Assembly: GCF_964204645.1 (NCBI RefSeq)
Contig: NC_134028.1
Location: 23,556,345-23,620,344 of the forward strand
Origin: Tubulanus polymorphus
Taxonomy: Eukaryota > Animalia > Nemertea
Reading direction: 5' to 3'
Length of the DNA stretch: 64,000 nt
In this document: piece by piece, positions 205-56,165 of the stretch
Numbering within the stretch: position 1 is the stretch's first letter
Layout of the letters: every line of letters begins with the position of its first letter
Notes under the pieces: model-generated
The model's input: only the letters and a program-made list of their open reading frames with translations
The model's database searches: none
What the model was told of the DNA's origin: nothing
Made by a program: the position numbers and the translations under genes

Positions 205-3200
205 TGTGGGATTTATCCAGTGGTAAATGTCAGCGTACATTTCGTCACAAAGCAGCGATCAGTGCAGCGGCTATCGGTGGTAGCATGTGCGTAACAGGAT
301 GTGAGGCAGGAAAAGTTAAAGTTTGGAATCTTAAAAATGGAAATCTAATCAAGGTATATCATTTGGCGGCTTTCGTACCGAGATTGAATTCTGGAGCCGG
401 TTGCTCAAAAGTTACCCAGTGGATAGTTGACATAGCGACAATTAAAAGCTCATTGTTACCCACATTATTTATCCACCAGTTATCTTTAACCAACTTTTGA
501 GCAAAAGTTGGTTTTAAGATAACTGGCTGATAAATCGAGATTAGATGAAGAATAGTTTCATGAATTATGTCTCTCTGTAGGTATTGCTTGGACACCACGG
601 ACCGGTGACTTGTATCAAGTTTGATCGTTGGCACATCGTCACTGGAAGTAAAGACAACTATGTTTTAGTGTGGAGTGCTCAGGGTGAACACGCAAGATGT
701 CTGAATGCGCTTAGGCACCAAAAGTAAATGATTTCACATAATAAATACTATTTTATATTCTATTGCAGCGATTAACTAAATTAGAGTCTATTTCAAGAGA
801 AACCCACAATATCAATTTAGACAACTGGACCCAGTTCCACAGTTGTGAGTTAAGATTTGACCCGGAGTTAACTCATTGAAAATGAACTAATTTCAACTCA
901 GAGTTAACTCTAACTCATGACTGTGGAACTGGATCCTGTTATTCTTAATTTTTCTTATGTCACGAGTTGAATCCTTCCACCCATCTTAATAATTCATTAA
1001 AAGAAGAAAAACCAGTTTATTCAATTCAAAAATTTAAACAGTTGTTCCAATTGATATTGTGGGTTTCTCTCAATGACATTCACCAAGACTGGAAAAAGTC
1101 TCAACTATACGCATACATAAATTGGATTCTATTTAATGTTTATACAGAGAAGTGTTGTGTTTGGAGTTTATGTATCTGAGGGTCGTATCAGGATCGGCCG
1201 ATGGTCGACTTCGTATATGGAACATCATTACGGGACAATGTTGTAGAATCATGAGGGGAAATAGTCGCAGCGATCCTATTCTTGGCCTGGTAGCTATCGG
1301 CAATCGGTAAGTAGTAGAGATGAATGTCCTTCATTGACTAATCAAATAGTTTTCGAATGTCTCAAGAGATTCCATGGTTTGCCATCATTTTACCTCCTGG
1401 TATAATAACTCATTAACTACTTGGGTTAAAGCTATAATTATATCAAACCCCTGAATCTGAATCAGTTAAATCCATAATTTTGATCTAATCAGCAGATAAA
1501 TTTCATCGTTGCTCAATGATCTGAATTTATTGGTTGGCCATTTATCTGGAAATCAGGGGAAAGTCAGGGCAATTCCTTTTCCGTAAAAAGTCAGGGAATT
1601 TTGTAAAGAAAAGCTAAAAATTAGGGAAATTTGTTGAGATTGCTAGATCGCGCGTAAAATCTAACAATTTCCCTCTATGTTTTACATATTTGACTGTGTC
1701 AATTGATTGGATTCTTAACAGATCAAGTCAGAGAAAACAACGTGCATTTCAGGGAATAGTCAGGGGAAAACCAAGTCAAAATTGGCCTCCTTGATTAACC
1801 TTATTCTAGTGTATCTAATTTTGGTCGTAGATCTGTAAATGATCGTCTAATATGAATTATTCTTGTTTGTTACAGAATAACGTTGAATACGCACATAAAT
1901 CTGCTTACGTTAAACTTCGAAGAGGTTGAATGGGATTATACGTTAGAAACCGATAAGATGCCTCCGCTCGTCACGTACGGCTCTTATTCCGACGCGCCTG
2001 TTCGCCAGCGTCCGTACGGGTACATACGCGCCCAGCGTATGAAACAGGCCGGAGCTACAAACACGAAAATTACGCGACACGCTAAAAACGACGCCGTATT
2101 CACCGGTCCGGCGATGACTCCACGAGCCGAGCAGTTGCCGCACAGCGCGAAGAGTCTCAGCGCGAAAAGCATGATGCGTAGTAAACTGATACAACAACGA
2201 CGCGCCGAATCGGCTAAAGAACCGCTGATGAAGACGAAATCGCAACAGAGGATCGTCGACGAACGGCTTGATCTTCGCGACGATGAGAATCGACCGCCTT
2301 CGACCGCGACTTCCCGACCGCCGAGTTCTAAGCGACCTCCTTCATCTCGCGTCGCGACCGCTAAATCGCGAACTCAATCCGTTTCGATCGCCCCGGCGCC
2401 TTCTGAAATCCATGACGACGATGACACGCCTATCGTACCGAATCGGAGAATTTCGTGGGCGTTCGAAAAACCGAACATTCCCAAGTGTAAAAACGTTACG
2501 TTATCGGAAACGAAAGCGATTCTTAGATCGCAGATGCGCGCGAAAGAGGTGATTCCACCGCCGGATTTTATCTATCTATCGGTCGCCGCGATTCATAACT
2601 CGCAAAGTCGCGAACCGGCCGCGAAAAATACGGAATCAAATCAAAACTATTCGATTAACGACGCGACGAAGCTTCACAGTCGACCTCCGTCTGCTCCGTC
2701 TCGACTCGATACTCGAGCGCGACTTCCTCGTAACGAGATCAACGTCGCCGATTTCTGGTCTCAGGCGAGCGACGACGAAGAGGCGATCACCGAGCTCGAC
2801 TCGGTCGCGACCCGACCGAAATCAGCGAATAACGAACCGAACGCGTCGAAGACTCCGATACCCGCGATGGAAACGTTCACGACCGATTTTGAAGTCGTCG
2901 ATAGCTCGCCGCGTTACAAGAGCATTCATCCGATGAGGGTTAAATCGAGTATTCCTCGCGGAAAGATTATCCGTCCGCATACGGTGAACGTCGCGCAAGG
3001 CAGCAGACAGCCGAGCGACGTTACAAAACAGAGACCTCATACGGCTGTGGGTCTCGCGCGGCGACCGACCAGCGGTTCGTCGAGTCTGAATCAACGTCCG
3101 ATGAGTTCGAAATCGGCCGTTAGCTCGGCGTCGGTTAGAGCTAAACGACGGATTCGACCGGAATCGACGGCGCCTTCGCCGCCCGATGCGGACATGGTTC

Positions 3201-3526
3201 CGATGTTGATGTATCCGCCGAATATGATCGAAAAAATCAAAAACAAAGTGAAATCGATGCACGTATCGCAGCTGTCGATCAGTCGTAGCAGCAGCGAACC
3301 GGCTCTGTTAGGCGTCAATCAATACAACGATCCGATGCGTAGCCACGCCCAATTTAAACTGCGTACGTACGAACAGGAGAAACAGTATCTTCACGATATC
3401 GCGAATTTGTATCGTCAGCAGAAAAAGCAGAAGGTTATTCAAGGCGAGCAGGATAAACGTAAAGCGTGGCTTATGAAAGCGAAAGGTCAAACCCCGACAG
3501 CACGGGTTGTACCGGCGGTTAACTGA
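205..3526 (+). CDS. FBXW10: F-box/WD40 protein, FBXW10/CDRT1-like (3' part; 5' exons lie outside the window)
   Basis: GT-AG exons 205-353, 581-723, 1148-1306 and 1876-3526 join in frame. WD40 repeats GHHGPVTCIKFDRWHIVTGSKD and EVLCLEFMYLRVVSGSADGRLRIWNIITGQCCRIMRGNSRSDPILGL...NRITLNTHINLLTLNFEEVEWDY resemble the FBXW10 C-terminal WD region as recalled. A long low-complexity S/P/R tail follows. Confidence 0.8.
827..935. mobile_element. Fold-back MITE with CCAGTTCCACAGT TIRs (related copy approx. 57459-57521)
   Basis: CCAGTTCCACAGTTGTGAGTT ... AACTCATGACTGTGGAACTGG inverted repeat. Confidence 0.7.
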
Positions 3527-16475: not shown

Positions 16476-17119
16476 TAGTTATTAATAATGCAAACAGACA
16501 TTTAATATAAAACAACAATTACTAGCACGCGTAAATTGCAGCGTAAGATGACGTCAACTACGATCTAAAAAGTATCATGGCTGACCTTCCAAGAGATGAA
16601 GGCACGAATCAAGTGTATCGTGGGGATTTAATTTCAGGCAACATGACAGGTTCATTCCGTGATAGGGAATGCTGTTAGAGGTGTTAAACTTCATAGGGAA
16701 CAGTGAAGTAAGTGGTATTTCTATCATCTCTGTAGTGTGTTCGCCTTTGGTGGGTGGGTAAAAATTAAAATTATTTTTTATTTAATTTAGAGAAGTCACT
16801 GACTCATTTTTTTTCTCACTAAGATCAAGTTAACCGCTTTTTTTCTGGTGTGAATGTAATTGAATTTTTTATTTCAGAAAACAAAGAAGTTTGAGGTGAA
16901 GAATAAGGCGATATCGATTTCCGCAACACAAAAGGTGAAATTGACCCTGCGTGGTGGGTGGCACTGGCGGCATCCTTGAAGGACCGAAACAAGAAGAAAA
17001 GAGCTCGATCCTGACAAATAGCCGGAAAAATTTTAGAAGGAACTTTTTCTTTTAGACGGTCTGCAAGTGCGCTGAAGAACCTGGAAAATTCAAATTTTTG
17101 TAAACGAAATACGAGCGAA

Positions 17120-20100
17120 ATGTCGAGATTAGTTGAAATTGGATTCGCTCCATCTTCTTACCAGCAGAACGGTAACATGGCCGAGGATGAAGACAGCGAT
17201 CTCAGTGAAAATGAAGATTTCCCGATGGAGGCGTTATTCTCGGATGATAACGCGACGCCCAGCTCGCCGACGCGTCGCGAGGACGGCCGTAAATACGTCG
17301 CCACCGACGACGAAAGCGACTCCGACGAATTTCCCGCGTCGCCGAGACCGATGACCCTGCGACAAAGACGCCTGTCGAAGTCGGCGTTGCCGCGGATGCC
17401 GTCGTTGAACTTCGCGAAGAAATCGGCCCCGATTCGGATTTCGGACTCGTCGTCCAGTCCGAGTAGCAGTCCGCGTTTGAATTGGAAGAGAGCGTTTCAG
17501 AAACTGAAGAAATTACGCGATCCGTGGGCCGAGTTTCATATCGACTCGTATCAACCAGAAACAGCCATCAGACATAGATACAATGCATTGAAAAAAATCT
17601 GGGTCACTGACACTGTTTGTATTAAAATGGAAAAAACGGTAAGTTACAGTAAAAGTATAGGCCCCTATTACGCGGTCTCGATTCCATAAAAACTCATTCT
17701 AAATAATTCAAGGAAACTCCTAAATGTTCAAGTAGCCGCAGAAAAGGGGCACTTTTTCACCGTAAAAAGCCAGGGGCACTTATGAAAAATGACAGATCTT
17801 AAATGTGAAGTGCCTGGGTACCTGAATAATTCATTTGAGAACAGATTGCTTTTCATTTTATGAAAAAAAACCTGAAATTTGTTTCCAAATTTCGAAAAAA
17901 TATTTTCCCAGATTTTTTTTACGCTGGCTTTTTGAAGGGCACTCTGAAAATGTTAGGCGGGGTCTTTCGCTACATATGAACCCCCCCTCGGCACGCGCCT
18001 CGACAGGTTCAATTCCCTACTGAGTGAAGACGTAGATGCTGTAAATGGATTTATAATTAAACCCAAAAAAATTTTTTTTTAGACAATTTTTCATCGTTAT
18101 TTTCAGGCTTTCAATCACGGAGCGATGAGAGAATGTTATCGTCTGTAAGCTTCATTTTAAGAAATATTATTTCCTACGTTTACAAATCTGTGAGAATTAG
18201 TTTCAATTCTCTTCCTTTTTTTGTTACAGAAAGAAACAGTCAAACTTCAGTAATCGCAAGGGCTGGAAACACGCGCAGAACTACGTGGCGAAGATCTACA
18301 TGCAGGAAGTACCGCGCGAGGTCTACTTCGAAGATGTTAGACTTCAGATGGATGCCAAATTGTGGGGCGAAGAATACAATCGCCACAACCCTCCCAAAAA
18401 GGTATATTTGTGAAGCGATCATTGATGTAATTTGAAAAAAATGAAATCTATTGCACTGAAATTTTGGGTAGCAGTTTCACAATTTGAAATAACAATTCAC
18501 TTAATTTCTGATATGGTTTAAAATATTTTGTAGTTTAGGCCTAATTTATCCAAAATATAAACTAGATACATTACAATTCTAAAATACTCTATTTTTGATG
18601 TTAATACAAGGATTTTTGATGTTAATACAAGGATACTTGATTTTGCTATCATGAAATTCAAATTGTTTTTATGATATTTCATTGAAGAATTTATGGGCTT
18701 CAAATTGTTTGTTTTGTTTTACAGGTTGATATTTTCCAGTTGTCTATTCTGGAGTTTATGAATCGCGAAGGCGAGCCGCTGTATCACCTCGAACACTACA
18801 TCGAGGGTGAATATATCAAATACAATTCAAACTCGGGCTTCGTAGACGAGAAAATGAGGCTGACACCGCACGTAAGCTGAACTTAGATTTACATAATGTC
18901 TTTCTGATGAAGTTATGATGCAGTTAAGAATCTTTCTGTGAGAAATATTTGTTCGAATCTGTTGAATTGAAATTTAGAAAGGGATATTTTCTGACTTTGG
19001 TTTCTATAGATGTGTGGCAGTCTATTGTCTGAATAGAGTAAAACCAAAAATACATTCTCTTTGTTTATGTATTTTTGGTAAAACTCACTATCAAAATAAA
19101 AACTTTAAAAAGGTGTTTTTAACATTTCGATTCATTTGCTATAATGAGCCATTCTCAGATTTATACGAGATTTATACAAGATCATGAATGATAGGCCGAC
19201 TTTGGTTTCTATAGATAAGAGACATTCTATTGTCTGAAGAGAGTATAACTCATGATCAAAAGAAAAACTTTAAAAAGATGTTTTTAACATTTCGATTTAT
19301 TTGCTATAGTGAGCCATTCTCAAAACTGATTTATACGTTTCTACAAGATCATGAATGATACCTGTTGTAGCTAGGATACAATTTGAGAAAAGAAACATTC
19401 GATACGTTTTCTGATATTTTTCAGGCGTTCAGTCATTTCACATTTGAGCGTTCGGGCCACGAGTTGATAGTAGTCGATATACAAGGGGTCGGAGACCTGT
19501 ACACGGATCCTCAGATTCATACGTCCGAGGGTAACGAGTACGGCGACGGCAACCTCGGAACGCGCGGCATGGCTTTATTCTTCCATTCACACGTGTGCAA
19601 CACGATCTGTCAGAGTCTTCAACTGTCGCAGTTCGATCTCGCTAGTCACGAAATACAAGATCAACAGAAATTCATGAATGTAAGTTAGAAAATCAGCACT
19701 AGTTATTATTATCAACGCTGCCAACTAGGCCTGATTTTCAGTATTTTCAGAATTTCCTATTTCATAGGCCTAACAAGAATTACTGAGTCAGGGAATTTCG
19801 TTAAAAATTTAGAAATCAGGGGAAAGTCAGGGAAATTTGTTGAGATCGCTAGATCAAACAGTTTCTGTCTATGTTGTACGTATTTGAATACGTTAATTGA
19901 TTCGAAAAAGGGAAAAGCAAGTCAAATAAAAGTGGCCACCCTGTTAGTGCTCAAAAGTCGGATCGACATGTTCAGCCTTTTAGTCATAATATTATCATTA
20001 TAGTCATTATATCAGCCATTCAATTAATATCTAAAGGTCAATGTCTTTTTCAAACTCTCGTTCCGTATATTTTTGTAGAAAAATGCGATGACAGTCGTGC

Positions 20101-29064: not shown

Positions 29065-32000
29065 CTAGAACCAGTAAAGTGAGTCATTTTTGAAATAATA
29101 GTTGACATCGAATGTCGGGGGGCCATCGAAGATTGGATTCAAGTTATCGATTCGATACATGGCTTCAACTTCTGGAGATGGGAATGTGTGGTTGCTCTTT
29201 CTCGCTGAAATCATGGAGAAGAAGAAGGAGAATTAATCTGATAGCTGATCTACTCAATCTTAGGCGAAAAAAAATTCATACCTTGTTTCTCATTTCTGCT
29301 GAGTTTAAAAGTTGACCCAGCCAGCCACCTATCTACCATGTACATTACTCATGATCAAAGCTAACAGACCCAACAGTTTTAAAAATGAACCGATCACAAA
29401 TTTTATTGCAGTTTACAGAAGTGACCGGCCAAATTAGGAGAAACAAGGTACCGTACATGCATAATTCTTTAAGCCTTATTTTGAATAATACTGTTAAAAC
29501 ACTGTGTGTCCATGTGTAACAGTGATTTTCGATATAACAAAATCCACAGAACAAAGAGAAGAGAATCCGAAATGTTTCCTTGAGCAAATACCGCTAGTTA
29601 ATTTGATATTTCGATTATATCCTAGTCATCTTCAGCAATGCTTGTTTCAAATTGCTTACCTTCATTAACGAAAAAATCAGCGAAATATTGCGCAATGCGA
29701 ATGGCATTAGGAGTGTGTGGAGATGTATGTTTACCATTCCAATCGTATACGTTTTTCTCTGGATGCCACTGAGTTCCGTAAAATGGATAGGAGATGGCTG
29801 GAAATGAATTTCAAATATAAGACCTCATGGCACTTTCTACAATAGGTGCATGTAATTGTATGGTATAGTCAACCTCTCTGATAAACTGCCACCCCCACCT
29901 AAAGAGAACATAACATCATGATCTATATTTTGTCTTAGAATTAGTAAATGAGCCCCTTATGTACCGCTGTCCTCTCTTAACAACAGGAATCCTAAATCAC
30001 ACATTTATCAGGCAGTTTATCAGGGGTTGACAGTAGAATATTATAGTACCTTCCATCGTTGAGATGAATTCAACTCCCTTTCGGTCATAATTAGTGGATA
30101 ACACTCTGAAGAAATCATGTAACTGTGGATATTGCTTGTATGTCTGAAAATTTACAAGGTAACTTATAGAATTATGCATTAATAAACACAAAAATACCTG
30201 TCAGCATCCATACGCAGGGTCGTACATAGCGTGGGCAATTGCCCCTCCCCAGAAATTTTGGAAAAGTGCCTTTTTTGCAGATTTCATTGTTATATCCAAT
30301 AGAACTGCGCCCTTTTTCGGGTTTCTCTACCCCCCCCCCCCCAAAAAATTCAAATGCTAGGTATGGCCCGGTTACATACCTCTGGTAATAGCGCCCAATG
30401 ATGGAAATTAGCAGTAACGGCTTCTTTCTGAAGTATCCTCAATACATCACTCGGCAAATGAGAAAACATACGACTTTCAGTAGTGGCTCCTGTAATGAAT
30501 TACATAAACCGGATCAACATTTCCTATTCATGACACTAATTGCATCATGCACATTAGCAAGTTAGAAAGTGCAGTTTGTGAACGAAAAATGATAAAGCGT
30601 GCTTATCTAAAAACTCAGCGTGCAGTTATCATTTCGCTTATGAAAGCTCCCCAAAATCGAATCAATTACAGGTCAGTTTGAATTTACTGAAAGCATGGAT
30701 GATATTACCCGGTATCAACTCTGTACAAATTCATCCTCCCCGACAGGAATTCGAACCTGTTGACATCAAGAGACTCTGCCATGGTACGAATCCTGTCTGA
30801 TCAGCTCAATTGCACTATAAGCACAGGTTAGGCACGATGCCATGTCGCGATGCCATGAAGTTCGAATCCCTGCTGAGGGAGGACAAAGCTCCTATAAAAG
30901 CGAAGCATGATTCGGTGAAATTTGCAGAAACTCCTTTTACCTTTAGAAAAATTTAGTGGCATTGCAATGTTCATAGCATCTGTTTTTAACAGAACATCTT
31001 TACCGAGAACTAGTGCCGTTAGAAGTTGAAATCCCATACAAGTGCCCCACATCGGAAAAAATACACCTTTTTTATTTTCCTAAAATTCAGATGAAAGTCA
31101 GATGAGCTCCTCACCTGTGGTTACATTTAGAGGCAACGCAATATCTTCCGCGTCCGTAGCTTTGAGGATATACTTGCCAACCACCAATGCAGTTAACAAC
31201 TCAAAACCGTTACAGGTACCCCACATAGGAAAAAAGTCCCCTCTCTCGTCGTGCGCCTACAAAAAGGGAGAAAAGGGTTGTGGGATGTTGCGTTCTTACC
31301 TTTCGAGATGTTCAGTGGTATCGCATAATTTGATGCATGCGCTGCTTTAAGCACATTTTTACCGACAGCAAGAGCGGTAAAGAGTTCAAAGCCGAGACAA
31401 GTGCCCCACATGGGGAAATAATCACCTTTTTTTCTAGCCTAAAACGAATGCATGTATTTAGCCAACTGATCGCTGAACTATCACGAAGAACAGGTACTTG
31501 ACCTTCTTTTCCAGTTTCATTTGCACCGAAACCACAAGAAATGCAGATACGGAAAGAAATGTTAATAATTATCAAGACCAATTCTAGATATATGTTTAGA
31601 TATTAAGAGAGAGCAAGAGAGAGAGAGGACAACAGATAGACTGTAGGGGTTATTTTTGTTTTAATTAAACGTGTAAATAAAAGAGGAAATAGTTTCATCA
31701 ACCAACATTCAAAATCAACATTTTAAGTTAGAATAAGCATAAATAGCAAGATAATATTAGACTTTTTAATGAACAGTTAAGCAAACTGAACTCTCGGTGC
31801 AAACCCTGACAAATGATTATTTACCTGAACAGCCAATTTGAAGAATATTTGACCGATTCTTGCGTAACCAGAATTCACAATATCAACAGCACCTCCAGGG
31901 TATAGAATTCTAAAAATAGAAATAACAACACTGGATTGATTAATACCATAGGCCTTATCAAAAATAGAATTCCCCAACAAGAAATAAACCAGGAAGTAAT

Positions 32001-32669
32001 TATGGCCATATAATACCGGTACTACATACCCATTCAAGTAAGAGAATAACTTTTCATAGTATTCCATGGGCTGGTTGATTCTGAAAATATAAGCGATATA
32101 CAACAAATATTCAACTAAAAATATGGTTGTCTCTACCTAATGCAAGCCTACTTGATAGGAACCACATTAGCACCAGCCATTTGAAGATATTTCACATACG
32201 ATGCAGGAATGTAAGAATCGCCATGTTTCCAATTTGACTTGTCAGTTTCTTGTGCAGCAACCCCTAAAAAAATCATAGTCAGGTTTAACAGAGTTAGCCT
32301 GGGATGATGCCTAGGGGCCAATTATTACAGAGGTAAGAAAAATACTCGATGAGTGAACTGATGGTGAACAACTGTTTAATTTTCTTATGTTCGGGGATTC
32401 AACTGGACAATCCTAACGGATTTTTTGAATCCCCAGACAAACTTATGTTATAACGTTATAATCTGTTGTTTTTGTATTATATAAATGATCATATGTTTGT
32501 CAAATAAATGAAAATGAAATGAAAATGAAATGACAAAGAAATAAACTATTTTAGGAAAACAATACAATAGCTACATTATTGTTGACTTACCAATGATTGG
32601 TCGTAAATTCAAAGCAACTGCAGAGTTAAGGCAGTAACCCAGAGATAGAATTACTACAAACAGCTTCAT
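29065..32669 (-). CDS. GGH: Gamma-glutamyl hydrolase (peptidase C26), with signal peptide
   Basis: Exons 32591-32669 (MKLFVVILSLGYCLNSAVALNLRPIIG), 32152-32263 (SYIPASYVKYLQMAGANVVPI), 32030-32080, 31825-31909 (ILYPGG), one of three exon-5 copies (FPMWGTCxGF), 30380-30489 (VTANFHHW), 30050-30143, 29660-29797 (YPFYGTQWHPEK) and 29065-29204 (ARKSNHTF...). The Cys-His-Glu catalytic motifs are present. Confidence 0.95.
30941..31079 (-). CDS. GGH: GGH exon 5c (catalytic-Cys exon, alternative copy 3)
   Basis: ttttag|...|gtaaaa, 139 nt, phase 0 to 1, ENKKGVFFPMWGTCMGFQLLTALVLGKDVLLKTDAMNIAMPLNFSK. Confidence 0.88.
31115..31256 (-). CDS. GGH: GGH exon 5b (catalytic-Cys exon, alternative copy 2)
   Basis: ttgtag|...|gtgagg, 142 nt, phase 0 to 1, AHDERGDFFPMWGTCNGFELLTALVVGKYILKATDAEDIALPLNVTT. 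Confidence 0.88.
31300..31438 (-). CDS. GGH: GGH exon 5a (catalytic-Cys exon, alternative copy 1)
   Basis: ttttag|...|gtaaga, 139 nt, phase 0 to 1, ARKKGDYFPMWGTCLGFELFTALAVGKNVLKAAHASNYAIPLNISK. Confidence 0.88.
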
Positions 32670-35800: not shown

Positions 35801-37819
35801 GTATAATGCTGGATTTGAAATTGTACGGATTCTCTGTGTTGTTCAGTCAAACCCCCGTGATGAAACCGGTAGTATTGTGTATTTCATGTCCATCTCGTTG
35901 ATTTCAGAATTTCAAAATCGCGCAAAAAGGCCAAAAAATCGAAGGTCAAGTTTCGAAGTTGCAAATGCTGCACACGTACGTCACGTATTTACGATTGACG
36001 AAAACGATAGAACGCAATTTACTGATGATTCAAAATCTCGAAGAGGGACTTCATAGCAAAAAACAACAGCGCGAAGGGAAGAAAATACCGAAACCTCAGG
36101 ATTTAGCCCGATTATATGAAATCATCGTTCAGGTCGGTATATAGCACATCAGATGCCATCATACACGCGTTTATGACCCGGGCAAAATTTGGCCTGTGTC
36201 AGGTTTAGACCCTGAAAATTCAGGAAATAAGGAATTTTTAGTGTCTTGTTCTTGCTGGTGACAAGTAAGATAAGAAACAGGCCCCACTGAGAACTTCTTT
36301 TAATTCAATCATCGAATTTTGGTCATGTATCTTATCATTTATCAGGGTACTCCCTGATCTATAAGAATGCCGAAAGTTGGGGATTTTGAATTCATGTAAC
36401 TGTGTGTGAACAATGCTCGAAATTCCATGTCTTAACAACTAATTTTGTGTTTTCTTTCTAAAGAATCTTACCGATATACCAAATCTACCTGGGTTCGAAG
36501 ACGATGACTCGATACAGACCGAAGTAGATACTGAAATATTAGGATATAAAGCATTTAGGTTCGTGTGGCATCTTTCAAATTTCATCGACTGTTGTTTTAT
36601 AATGTATAAATATGAATATTTGAGAATCAATTAGTCTAGGTGATCGAAGATAATAAATGCTGAAGAAACTAAAGTATACATCAAATTAATGAAAAGATAG
36701 AAATTTAGGCATTGAAATATTGAAACTTGTTTTGAAAAATTGCAGGTGTTTCTATATAGCAAAAACTTACGCCAGTGTGAAGAAATGGCCGGAGGCTCTA
36801 GCGTTATACGAAAGGGTGCTAAAATATGCAAATCAGTCGTTAGCCGGTTACAAATCATTCAAGGACAGTAAGTCGGAAAAAGTGACGATAGCCGTGACGA
36901 AATTAAATAAACTGGTGCAAACCGTCGATGGATTGAAATATTCGTGCCACGCCGCGAGTATTCTAGACGTAGATAATCTGACAGAGCAAACCGCGTCGAT
37001 GTCAATTCAATCAAAGAAGGTAAGAAAAAAGCGCGAAATTTTTTTACGAAATGAGATGGATCTAAAAAATCAAAATACAGTTGACTCGTCGCTAGCCTCG
37101 GAACTCTCAGGACTGATAGATTCTCTCCAAAGTAGGATACAAATTCCGTGGCATTTGACTCGAGGGTAAATGCAGTGTAATGTACTGGACCCTGATTGCA
37201 CAGTTTATGGTTAAACAGGGTGGCACTTACCTGGAAATCAAGGAAAACACAGGGAACTTTTGTGAAATAGCTTTTAATCTGGGAACAGTCGGGGAAATTT
37301 TAGGAGATTGCTAGATTGCTCGCGTAAAATCAAACAGTTTCCATCTATGTTTTACGTATTTTACTGTGTTAATTTCTAGCAAATCAGTCGGGGGAACAGC
37401 TTGCATGTCAGGGAATAGTCACGCTGAAAGTTAGTCAAATAAAAGTGGCCACACCGTAAAACATTTGACTGTAGTGTTTAATAAGTCCTATGATCTGTGA
37501 CCAGGATCTCAATTCCACTGAGTCTACGATTGATAATTCATAGTTAGCGATCAACGTCTTCACGATATCTTCTCTGTATTTTTTTCAGCCACTGATTGAT
37601 CGATTAGACGAGTACGTTACCGACTCGTCGTTAACCGGCAAGAAACCAAATCTCGTACCGTTCCCGCCTGATTTCCAACCGATCGCGTGTAAACCGTTGT
37701 TCTTCGATCTGGCGTTGAATCATCTAGAATTCCCGTCGCTAGATGATAAAGTCGAACAGAAGAGAGGCGGCGGTATTACCGGTTTCGTTAAAGGATGGTT
37801 GTGGGGCAGTAAAAAATGA
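32843..37819 (+). CDS. SRP68: Signal recognition particle subunit SRP68
   Basis: Exons approx. 32843-32933, 33108-33174, 33270-33383, 33469-33664, 34033-34116, 34637-34825, 35289-35528, 35909-36132, 36464-36558, 36746-37019, 37589-37819. Motifs [88 protein letters not shown]. Confidence 0.96.
33677..33972. mobile_element. piggyBac-like MITE copy (SRP68 intron)
   Basis: TTAA-CCCTTTCAGTGC...ACACTGAAAGGG-TTAA, closely similar to 12532-12819. Confidence 0.85.
35050..35256. mobile_element. Degenerate piggyBac-like MITE copy
   Basis: CCCTTTCAGTGCTGACT start and a decayed right end (GTAAGGGTCAA). Confidence 0.65.
37217..37456. repeat. Dispersed CAGGGAA-rich repeat with CAGGGTGGC(C)AC-type ends (related copies approx. 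1536-1790, 7997-8240, 12380-12900, 19770-19945, 35686-35830, 46560-46785, 55477-55890)
   Basis: Shared core CTAGATCGC..GTAAAATCAAACAGTTTCCATCTATGT in several copies, plus GTGGCCACCCTG-like termini. Confidence 0.7.
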
Positions 37820-41296: not shown

Positions 41297-41524
41297 AATT
41301 ATGTCGAATAAAATATCATTGAATTGGTTAAGGCGGCACAGCCGTGGTGGCAGCACTTGACGGTCGCATTTTCTAATTTGGTAAATGTAGCCTGGCTGGA
41401 ACTTTCGAGTCCGGATTCTGACTCGCGGAGCCTGGCCGAAATCAGACATCACGGAAACCACCTGTTCCGCGGGGATTTCCCATATAATTTGACGGGGGAA
41501 CCCCTTCCACAAAAGAGAGCGAAG
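41297..41524. promoter_or_regulatory. Bidirectional promoter JmjC gene/ECD
   Basis: Divergent ATGs about 228 bp apart. GC-richer than the flanks; contains GGGGATTTCCC and GGGGAACCCC. Confidence 0.65.

Positions 41525-56165
<14,641 letters not shown>

What the first reader, a model, noticed from the sequence alone, without database searches (positions are those of the whole stretch)
30941..31438. Three tandem, mutually exclusive active-site exons in gamma-glutamyl hydrolase
Seen in sequence: the GGH exon carrying the nucleophile elbow occurs three times (31300-31438, 31115-31256, 30941-31079). All have open frames, canonical AG/GT sites and identical phase (0 in, 1 out; 139/142/139 nt). Joining two or three copies, or skipping all, shifts the frame. 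The copies differ at many positions yet all keep FPMWGTCxGF, the TAL/GK core and a terminal N-x-S/T sequon (NIS, NVT, NFS), which points to purifying selection. They differ right after the catalytic Cys (Leu/Asn/Met; GFE vs GFQ) and in the following loop (AHASNYA / TDAEDIA / TDAMNIA). Established: this Cys is the nucleophile of the Cys-His-Glu peptidase C26 fold, and vertebrate GGH has this region once. Inference: one gene makes three folylpolyglutamate hydrolases with swapped catalytic cores, possibly differing in endo/exo mode, pH optimum or substrate. I do not know of this being described for GGH.
Basis: partly seen in the sequence, partly recalled or inferred. Interest (0 to 1): 0.9.

Follow-up and report, generated by a model that had tools for sequence, protein, structure and literature searches.

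The report
Swappable active-site exons in worm GGH
A ribbon worm's folate-trimming enzyme gene (GGH) carries three old, intact copies of the exon with the catalytic cysteine and splices in one at a time (two seen in RNA, the third only in automatic gene models), which likely tunes substrate handling rather than the chemistry.

Summary
Three copies of GGH exon 5 (A 31438-31300, B 31256-31115, C 31079-30941) lie 43 and 35 nt apart. RNA contigs from two studies splice exon 4 to B to exon 6, and exon 4 to C to exon 6. The A, B and C proteins are identical to RefSeq isoforms X3, X1 and X2 of the nemertean Tubulanus polymorphus, so all three are already in automatic annotation; I found no paper. Synonymous sites are near saturation and pN/pS is 0.24-0.34, so the copies are old and selected. 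Exclusivity is likely enforced by spacers shorter than the ~50-nt donor-to-branch-point limit, backed by frameshifts. Copy A is less certain: in RNA contigs it appears only in non-coding forms. 'Swapped catalytic cores' is overstated: the residues invariant in the family are shared, and the post-cysteine Met and the Gln variant are common among homologues. One new lead: a second nemertean, Lineus longissimus, swaps homologous blocks of GGH at exons 2 and 6 instead. Verdict: a real, new member of a known kind; functional differences untested.

The parts
32591..32669 (-). GGH exon 1 (coding part; hydrophobic N-terminus, likely signal peptide)
   Evidence: identical to RefSeq proteins
32152..32263 (-). 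GGH exon 2 (the equivalent block is swapped between Lineus isoforms)
32030..32080 (-). GGH exon 3
   Evidence: joints in X2 and X4
31825..31909 (-). GGH exon 4, common upstream donor (phase 0)
   Evidence: joints to A, B and C
31300..31438 (-). Exon 5 copy A (GTCLGFE); RefSeq isoform X3; acceptor used in X2, but the contig reads on through its donor
31420..31428 (-). Donor inside copy A (AAG|GT, 13 nt in), spliced to the acceptor of B in X2
   Evidence: joint 31255-31425
31257..31299 (-). 43-nt spacer A-B, shorter than the ~50-nt steric limit; retained in an X2 contig
31115..31256 (-). Exon 5 copy B (GTCNGFE); RefSeq isoform X1; spliced alone in X2 and X4
31080..31114 (-). 35-nt spacer B-C with a branch-point-like CTGAC about 17 nt from B's donor; retained in an X2 contig
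30941..31079 (-). Exon 5 copy C (GTCMGFQ); RefSeq isoform X2; spliced alone in X2 and X4
30380..30489 (-). GGH exon 6, common downstream acceptor (phase 1; NFHH motif; the equivalent block is swapped between Lineus isoforms)
30050..30143 (-). GGH exon 7
29660..29797 (-). GGH exon 8 with catalytic His and Glu (QWHPE)
29065..29204 (-). GGH exon 9, coding part to the stop codon

Best explanation
One GGH gene holds three old, intact tandem copies of its catalytic-cysteine exon and splices in only one per message (shown for B and C, predicted for A), likely because the 35- and 43-nt spacers are too short to be spliced out, giving isoforms that likely differ in substrate handling or stability but not in chemistry. 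Inferred steps: the branch point of a downstream copy lies within 43 nt of the upstream copy's donor, so U1 and U2 cannot sit there together and neighbours cannot be joined. The one jump this does not block (A to C, 220 nt), full skipping and spacer retention all shift the frame and would be removed by nonsense-mediated decay. Every isoform keeps Pro-x-Trp-Gly-Thr-Cys-x-Gly and shares the His/Glu of exon 8, so each is predicted to be an active folylpolyglutamate hydrolase. The 18-19 differing residues sit just before the nucleophile strand, on the helix after the Cys and in the loop at 137-155.
For: Single X4 contigs span exon 4-B-exon 6 (199 nt) and exon 4-C-exon 6 (196 nt); X2, from another study, shows the same four joints, all GT-AG, and the DNA-type run X1 shows none of them. 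Contigs crossing each spacer unspliced exist in X2 (31230-31437; 31052-31143), the dead-end product expected if the spacers cannot be removed. Reconstructed A, B, C proteins are identical to XP_074649016.1, XP_074649014.1 and XP_074649015.1. pS 0.65-0.89 and pN 0.22; pN/pS 0.24-0.34, all three 95% intervals below 0.6. A fits the family profile as well as C (both -66.0; 19 of 130 homologues score lower). The model of the A form matches human and zebrafish GGH structures (E about 1e-35, TM 0.85). A donor-to-branch-point distance under 50 nt is a recognised cause of exclusivity: 57 of 629 human clusters (PMC5740500, passages) and OGDH 4a/4b (PMC7969005, passages).
Against: In X2 the contig that enters A from exon 4 runs unbroken through A's donor into B, and another contig uses a donor 13 nt inside A; both forms have premature stops. 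A's status as a coding exon therefore rests on sequence and on a RefSeq model whose evidence I could not see. Branch points are predicted from sequence only, and no consensus match was found in the A-B spacer. The minimum intron size of this species was not measured (shortest other intron in the gene: 71 nt). No assay or ligand-contact map supports a functional difference, and most variant residues occur in ordinary single-exon GGHs.
Confidence: 0.68

Rival explanations
1. Only B and C are coding alternatives. A now serves as a decoy or 'poison' exon whose acceptor and internal donor divert messages into frameshifted forms, or it has recently fallen out of use.
For: All A-containing contigs seen in X2 are non-coding: exon 4-A-spacer-B, and intron 4-A(13 nt)-B. 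A carries a few residues rare or absent in 130 homologues (Arg111, Phe129, His143).
Against: A keeps its frame, both splice sites (donor 8 of 9 consensus letters) and all invariant residues despite pS 0.65-0.85 to B and C. Its family fit equals that of C. RefSeq models it as isoform X3. Contigs drop rare variants and only two informative runs were laid.
Confidence: 0.28
2. The isoforms are enzymatically near-equivalent. The copies persist because each is used in some cells, so each stays under purifying selection, and the differences are mostly tolerated drift.
For: Met after the Cys (18 of 130) and Gln at +4 (55 of 130) are common in single-exon GGHs. The copies are about as far from each other (61%) as from mollusc or brachiopod GGH (57-63%). 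Only the backbone amide of the post-Cys residue forms the oxyanion hole (PMC12958103).
Against: Asn after the Cys in B is rare (1 of 130). A second nemertean has block swaps in two other exons of the same gene, which hints at repeated selection for GGH variety. Human tandem-duplicated exon events are reported to be tissue-specific and to lie near ligand sites in some enzymes (PMC9741552, passages).
Confidence: 0.35
3. The triplet is an assembly artefact, or two copies are neutral pseudo-exons.
For: None found.
Against: One DNA contig spans all three; the copies are 59-67% identical in DNA with pN/pS well below 1; B and C are both spliced in two studies.
Confidence: 0.02

Closest known systems
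Gamma-glutamyl hydrolase, peptidase family C26 (human PDB 1l9x; zebrafish 4l7q, 4l8f, 4l8w)
   Same: Same fold (TM 0.85, 44-46% identity), nucleophile Cys in this exon, His/Glu motif in exon 8.
   Different: GGH is absent from the human catalogue of tandem-duplicated exon substitutions (supplement of PMC8373072: GGH 0, controls KHK and ACOX1 5 each). None of 13 other GGH clusters compared showed an internal block swap.
RefSeq gene models XP_074649014.1, XP_074649015.1, XP_074649016.1 (Tubulanus polymorphus GGH-like X1-X3)
   Same: Identical, residue for residue, to the B, C and A forms.
   Different: Automatic annotation only; I found no description of the cluster, its spacers or its function.
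Tandem-duplicated mutually exclusive exons in enzymes (KHK, ACOX1, OGDH 4a/4b)
   Same: Homologous exons of equal phase swapped near the active site; short donor-to-branch distance (OGDH); conserved catalytic residue in both forms (KHK).
   Different: Three copies rather than two; the whole spacer is under 45 nt (in OGDH distant branch points do the job inside a longer intron); apparently confined to one invertebrate lineage.
Lineus longissimus GGH isoforms XP_064623907.1, XP_064623916.1, XP_064623925.1
   Same: Same gene, same phylum, homologous block swaps that fit exon boundaries.
   Different: The swapped blocks are exon 2 (63% identical) and exon 6 (42%); the exon-5 block is the same in 3 of 3 isoforms. 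Lineus DNA was not seen.

Membership tests
Gamma-glutamyl hydrolase (peptidase C26) | Class I glutamine amidotransferase fold, closest to GGH | tested here: met
   Foldseek top six hits are human and zebrafish GGH, E about 1e-35; next family E 8e-9; model made for the A form only
Gamma-glutamyl hydrolase (peptidase C26) | Cys nucleophile with His and Glu of the triad | tested here: met
   Cys in all three copies aligns with the position mutated in 4l8f C108A; QWHPE in exon 8
Gamma-glutamyl hydrolase (peptidase C26) | Hydrolyses folyl- or methotrexate-polyglutamates | not testable with these tools
   Needs an enzyme assay
Tandem-duplicated mutually exclusive exons | Adjacent homologous exons of like length and equal phase | tested here: met
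Tandem-duplicated mutually exclusive exons | Each copy spliced alone between the same flanking exons | tested here: inconclusive
   Met for B and C in two studies; for A only a RefSeq model, with RNA contigs showing non-coding forms
Tandem-duplicated mutually exclusive exons | Joint inclusion or skipping gives no functional product | tested here: met
   All 12 other forms computed have a stop 291-835 nt before the last junction
Tandem-duplicated mutually exclusive exons | Purifying selection on each copy | tested here: met
   pN/pS 0.24-0.34 over 42 codons; pairwise within one genome, no orthologous copies available
Steric-interference class of mutually exclusive exons | Donor-to-branch-point distance under about 50 nt | tested here: met
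   Whole spacers are 43 and 35 nt, so any branch point inside them qualifies; branch points not mapped
Docking-site/selector class (Dscam type) | One RNA docking site pairing with a selector at each copy | tested here: not met
   No site shared by all copies; 1 of 12 duplex tests beat all 30 shuffles, a low-complexity CT/GA pairing with B only; no cross-species test possible

The most novel reading that the evidence does not exclude
Ribbon worms have independently and repeatedly turned one GGH gene into a small enzyme family by exon swapping: three nucleophile exons in Tubulanus, paired exons 2 and 6 in Lineus. The isoforms have different gamma-glutamyl substrates, chain-length preferences or compartments (gut, lysosome, mucus), and the swaps would map the determinants of GGH specificity, including endo- versus exo-cleavage.
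Probability: 0.25. Interest if true: 0.7.

Novelty: new member of a known kind. Interest (0 to 1): 0.45.

Why it matters
Mutually exclusive active-site exons are a known device, and these three isoforms are already in automatic annotation, so the finding is not a new mechanism. It gives a natural set of GGH chimeras that differ in only 18-19 residues around the nucleophile; with the Lineus exon-2 and exon-6 swaps, that is a ready experiment on what sets GGH substrate preference (GGH controls folate and methotrexate polyglutamate turnover; own knowledge). The 35- and 43-nt spacers are a very compact three-way case of steric exclusion with visible dead-end products. Swaps at different exons in two nemerteans would, if the Lineus DNA confirms them, be convergent diversification of one enzyme.

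Tried and rejected
No whole genome was held for the window, so other GGH genes and the species' intron-size distribution were not checked. No listed run is on record as RNA; X2 and X4 are taken as RNA because their contigs skip GT-AG introns that X1 keeps. No A-to-exon-6, A-to-B (at A's own donor), A-to-C or B-to-C joint was listed in X2 or X4 (6 joints in all, none hidden); contigs show presence, not absence, so I do not count this as evidence. X5 laid nothing. Contig depths were not used to rank isoforms. The first protein search with B alone found nothing. Pfam gave no hit for the 46-47-aa exons. The scan of metagenome contigs returned 74 loci, none with a tandem exon cluster; 2 of 74 had two motifs about 1.1 kb apart, which look like whole-gene repeats (not checked); no locus matched the query's first sequence above 64% over its length, so the contig behind the nemertean-like fragment P0373 was apparently not returned; many loci are short, so this is weak. 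A tree of the exon block (34 rows, 46 columns) did not resolve A/B/C; one clade is not rejected (p-AU 0.564). A common RNA docking site was not found. An intronic promoter at 31754 was considered and set aside: that contig ends next to a site that differs in X1 (31755), which fits a graph break. The 59 open codons upstream of A's internal donor hold no Met and no in-phase acceptor. The supplement search of PMC5740500 was uninformative because the control KHK also gave 0. The paper on the zebrafish GGH-methotrexate structures was not held, so substrate contacts were not mapped; PMC12710020 (passages) is a docking study and was not relied on. Paper searches for GGH with mutually exclusive splicing, isoforms or exon duplication, and for Nemertea with mutually exclusive splicing, showed no description in the listings (at most 20 rows listed each; none of the 20 listed of 137 held 'glutamyl hydrolase'); subscription journals and bioRxiv supplements are not covered.

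Full report
Observation. On the minus strand three homologous exons lie at 31438-31300 (A, 139 nt), 31256-31115 (B, 142 nt) and 31079-30941 (C, 139 nt), each with AG/GT ends and an open frame. The proteins are 59-61% identical with 22 invariant columns. The motif occurs three times in the window, all here. A DNA-type contig of run X1 spans 30313-32391, so the triplet is real. The spacers are 43 and 35 nt; the other introns of the gene are 71-455 nt.

What the gene is. Nine exon positions give proteins of 315 (A), 316 (B) and 315 (C) residues. These are identical to RefSeq XP_074649016.1 (X3), XP_074649014.1 (X1) and XP_074649015.1 (X2), gamma-glutamyl hydrolase-like, Tubulanus polymorphus, a nemertean. 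The exon matches human and zebrafish GGH, and its Cys is the residue replaced in the C108A structure. The His/Glu motif is in exon 8. An AlphaFold model of the A form (pLDDT 83.9) matches GGH structures at TM 0.85. The triplicated exon encodes the nucleophile strand (119-122), the helix after it (124-134) and the loop to residue 155.

Splicing evidence. Five runs were listed, none on record as RNA. X2 and X4, from two studies, have contigs that skip GT-AG introns kept in X1, so I take them as RNA. On 30370-31920 six joints were listed. Exon 4-B, B-exon 6, exon 4-C and C-exon 6 occur in both runs; in X4 single contigs span exon 4-B-exon 6 and exon 4-C-exon 6. That shows one-at-a-time use of B and C. 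X2 also has three non-coding forms: exon 4 into A reading on through the 43-nt spacer into B; a contig crossing the B-C spacer; and a donor 13 nt inside A joined to B on a contig that keeps part of intron 4. All have premature stops. So A's acceptor is used, but its coding use is shown only by a RefSeq model. Such models usually rest on RNA-seq introns (recalled; I could not see the record's evidence). I put productive A at about 0.7.

Selection. Over 42 codons pS is 0.65-0.89 and pN 0.22; pN/pS is 0.26 (A-B), 0.34 (A-C) and 0.24 (B-C), with bootstrap upper bounds 0.44, 0.58 and 0.38. The copies are old and constrained. Against 130 non-redundant homologues (of 208 full-length ones, filtered at 85% identity) all three keep the four invariant residues. 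A and C fit the family equally well (19 of 130 homologues score lower; B 31 of 130). A tree of 46 columns cannot order the duplications; a single clade is not rejected.

Mechanism. Shown: equal phase; B or C alone in messages; spacers under 45 nt; frameshift for all 12 other forms computed. Inferred: neighbours cannot be joined because the donor-to-branch-point distance is under the ~50-nt limit described for 57 of 629 human clusters (PMC5740500, passages) and for OGDH exons 4a/4b (PMC7969005, passages). A CTGAC lies about 17 nt from B's donor; no consensus match was found in the A-B spacer. The retained-spacer contigs are what this block predicts. A to C (220 nt) is not blocked sterically and would rely on nonsense-mediated decay. 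No shared RNA docking site was found. What chooses the copy is not known.

Function. The chemistry residues are shared. After the Cys, homologues have Leu 100, Met 18, Gln 10, Asn 1, Glu 1 of 130; the +4 position is Glu 75, Gln 55; the sequon is family-wide. In family C26 the oxyanion hole is made of backbone amides only (PMC12958103, passages). B's Asn is the one rare choice next to the nucleophile. Tuning of substrate handling or stability is the likeliest effect, but near-equivalence remains open, and I could not map ligand contacts.

Relatives. Twenty clusters were looked up and 15 compared member by member; three singletons and the zebrafish and skate clusters were left out. Thirteen showed no internal block swap. 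Lineus longissimus, a second nemertean, has three 332-residue isoforms that share one exon-5 block but swap homologous blocks at residues 33-57 and 159-194. These fall inside Tubulanus exons 2 and 6 (63% and 42% identical between versions, 100% elsewhere). This suggests independent mutually exclusive exons in the same gene; I saw protein models only, so mis-joined tandem genes are not excluded. Human GGH is not in the tandem-duplicated exon catalogue (supplement of PMC8373072, with working controls).

Novelty. The device is well known (KHK, ACOX1, OGDH; PMC9741552, passages). Unchecked notes of this scan list 10 similar active-site cases in at least 7 genomes and none for GGH. The isoforms are already in RefSeq. 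Paper searches showed no description (listings only). Verdict: real, a new member of a known kind, interest 0.45; the Lineus parallel is the lead most worth following.

Noticed in passing
P0123, P0372, P0374 (Lineus longissimus XP_064623925.1, XP_064623916.1, XP_064623907.1): GGH isoforms swap homologous blocks equal to exon 2 (14 differences) and exon 6 (21 differences) and are identical elsewhere: candidate independent mutually exclusive exons in the same gene.
   Followed up: partly
window 31426/31425 (-): An AAG|GT donor 13 nt inside copy A is joined to B in X2 on a contig that keeps part of intron 4. If the AG left at this joint were then used as acceptor, exact exon 4-B would result (a two-step, intrasplicing-like route; idea recalled, untested); two earlier AGs would shift the frame.
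   Followed up: partly
window 31619-31630 and 31236-31247: A 12-nt inverted repeat pairs a CT tract in intron 4 with the start of copy B and would loop out A; best of 12 duplex tests (0 of 30 shuffles as low) but low-complexity, so possibly chance.
   Followed up: partly
window about 29260-29460, 30760-30900, 32400-32500: Short high-copy repeats inside GGH introns 8, 5 and 1 (very high depth and many loose ends in X1).
   Followed up: no
window 36693-37169 (+), 41312-41737 (+), 46180-46566 (+): Exons of SRP68 (PF16969) and an SGT1/ecdysoneless-family gene (PF07093).
   Followed up: no
window 1856-3526 (+); 17015-17689 (+): A 556-codon open frame without a Pfam hit; an exon that looks like eEF2 kinase (name recalled, no Pfam hit in this piece).
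   Followed up: no
P0117, P0118, P0229, P0313; L052, L053: GGH-like proteins of 490-615 residues that score as if doubled, and two loci with two nucleophile motifs about 1.1 kb apart: probably fused models or whole-gene repeats.
   Followed up: no
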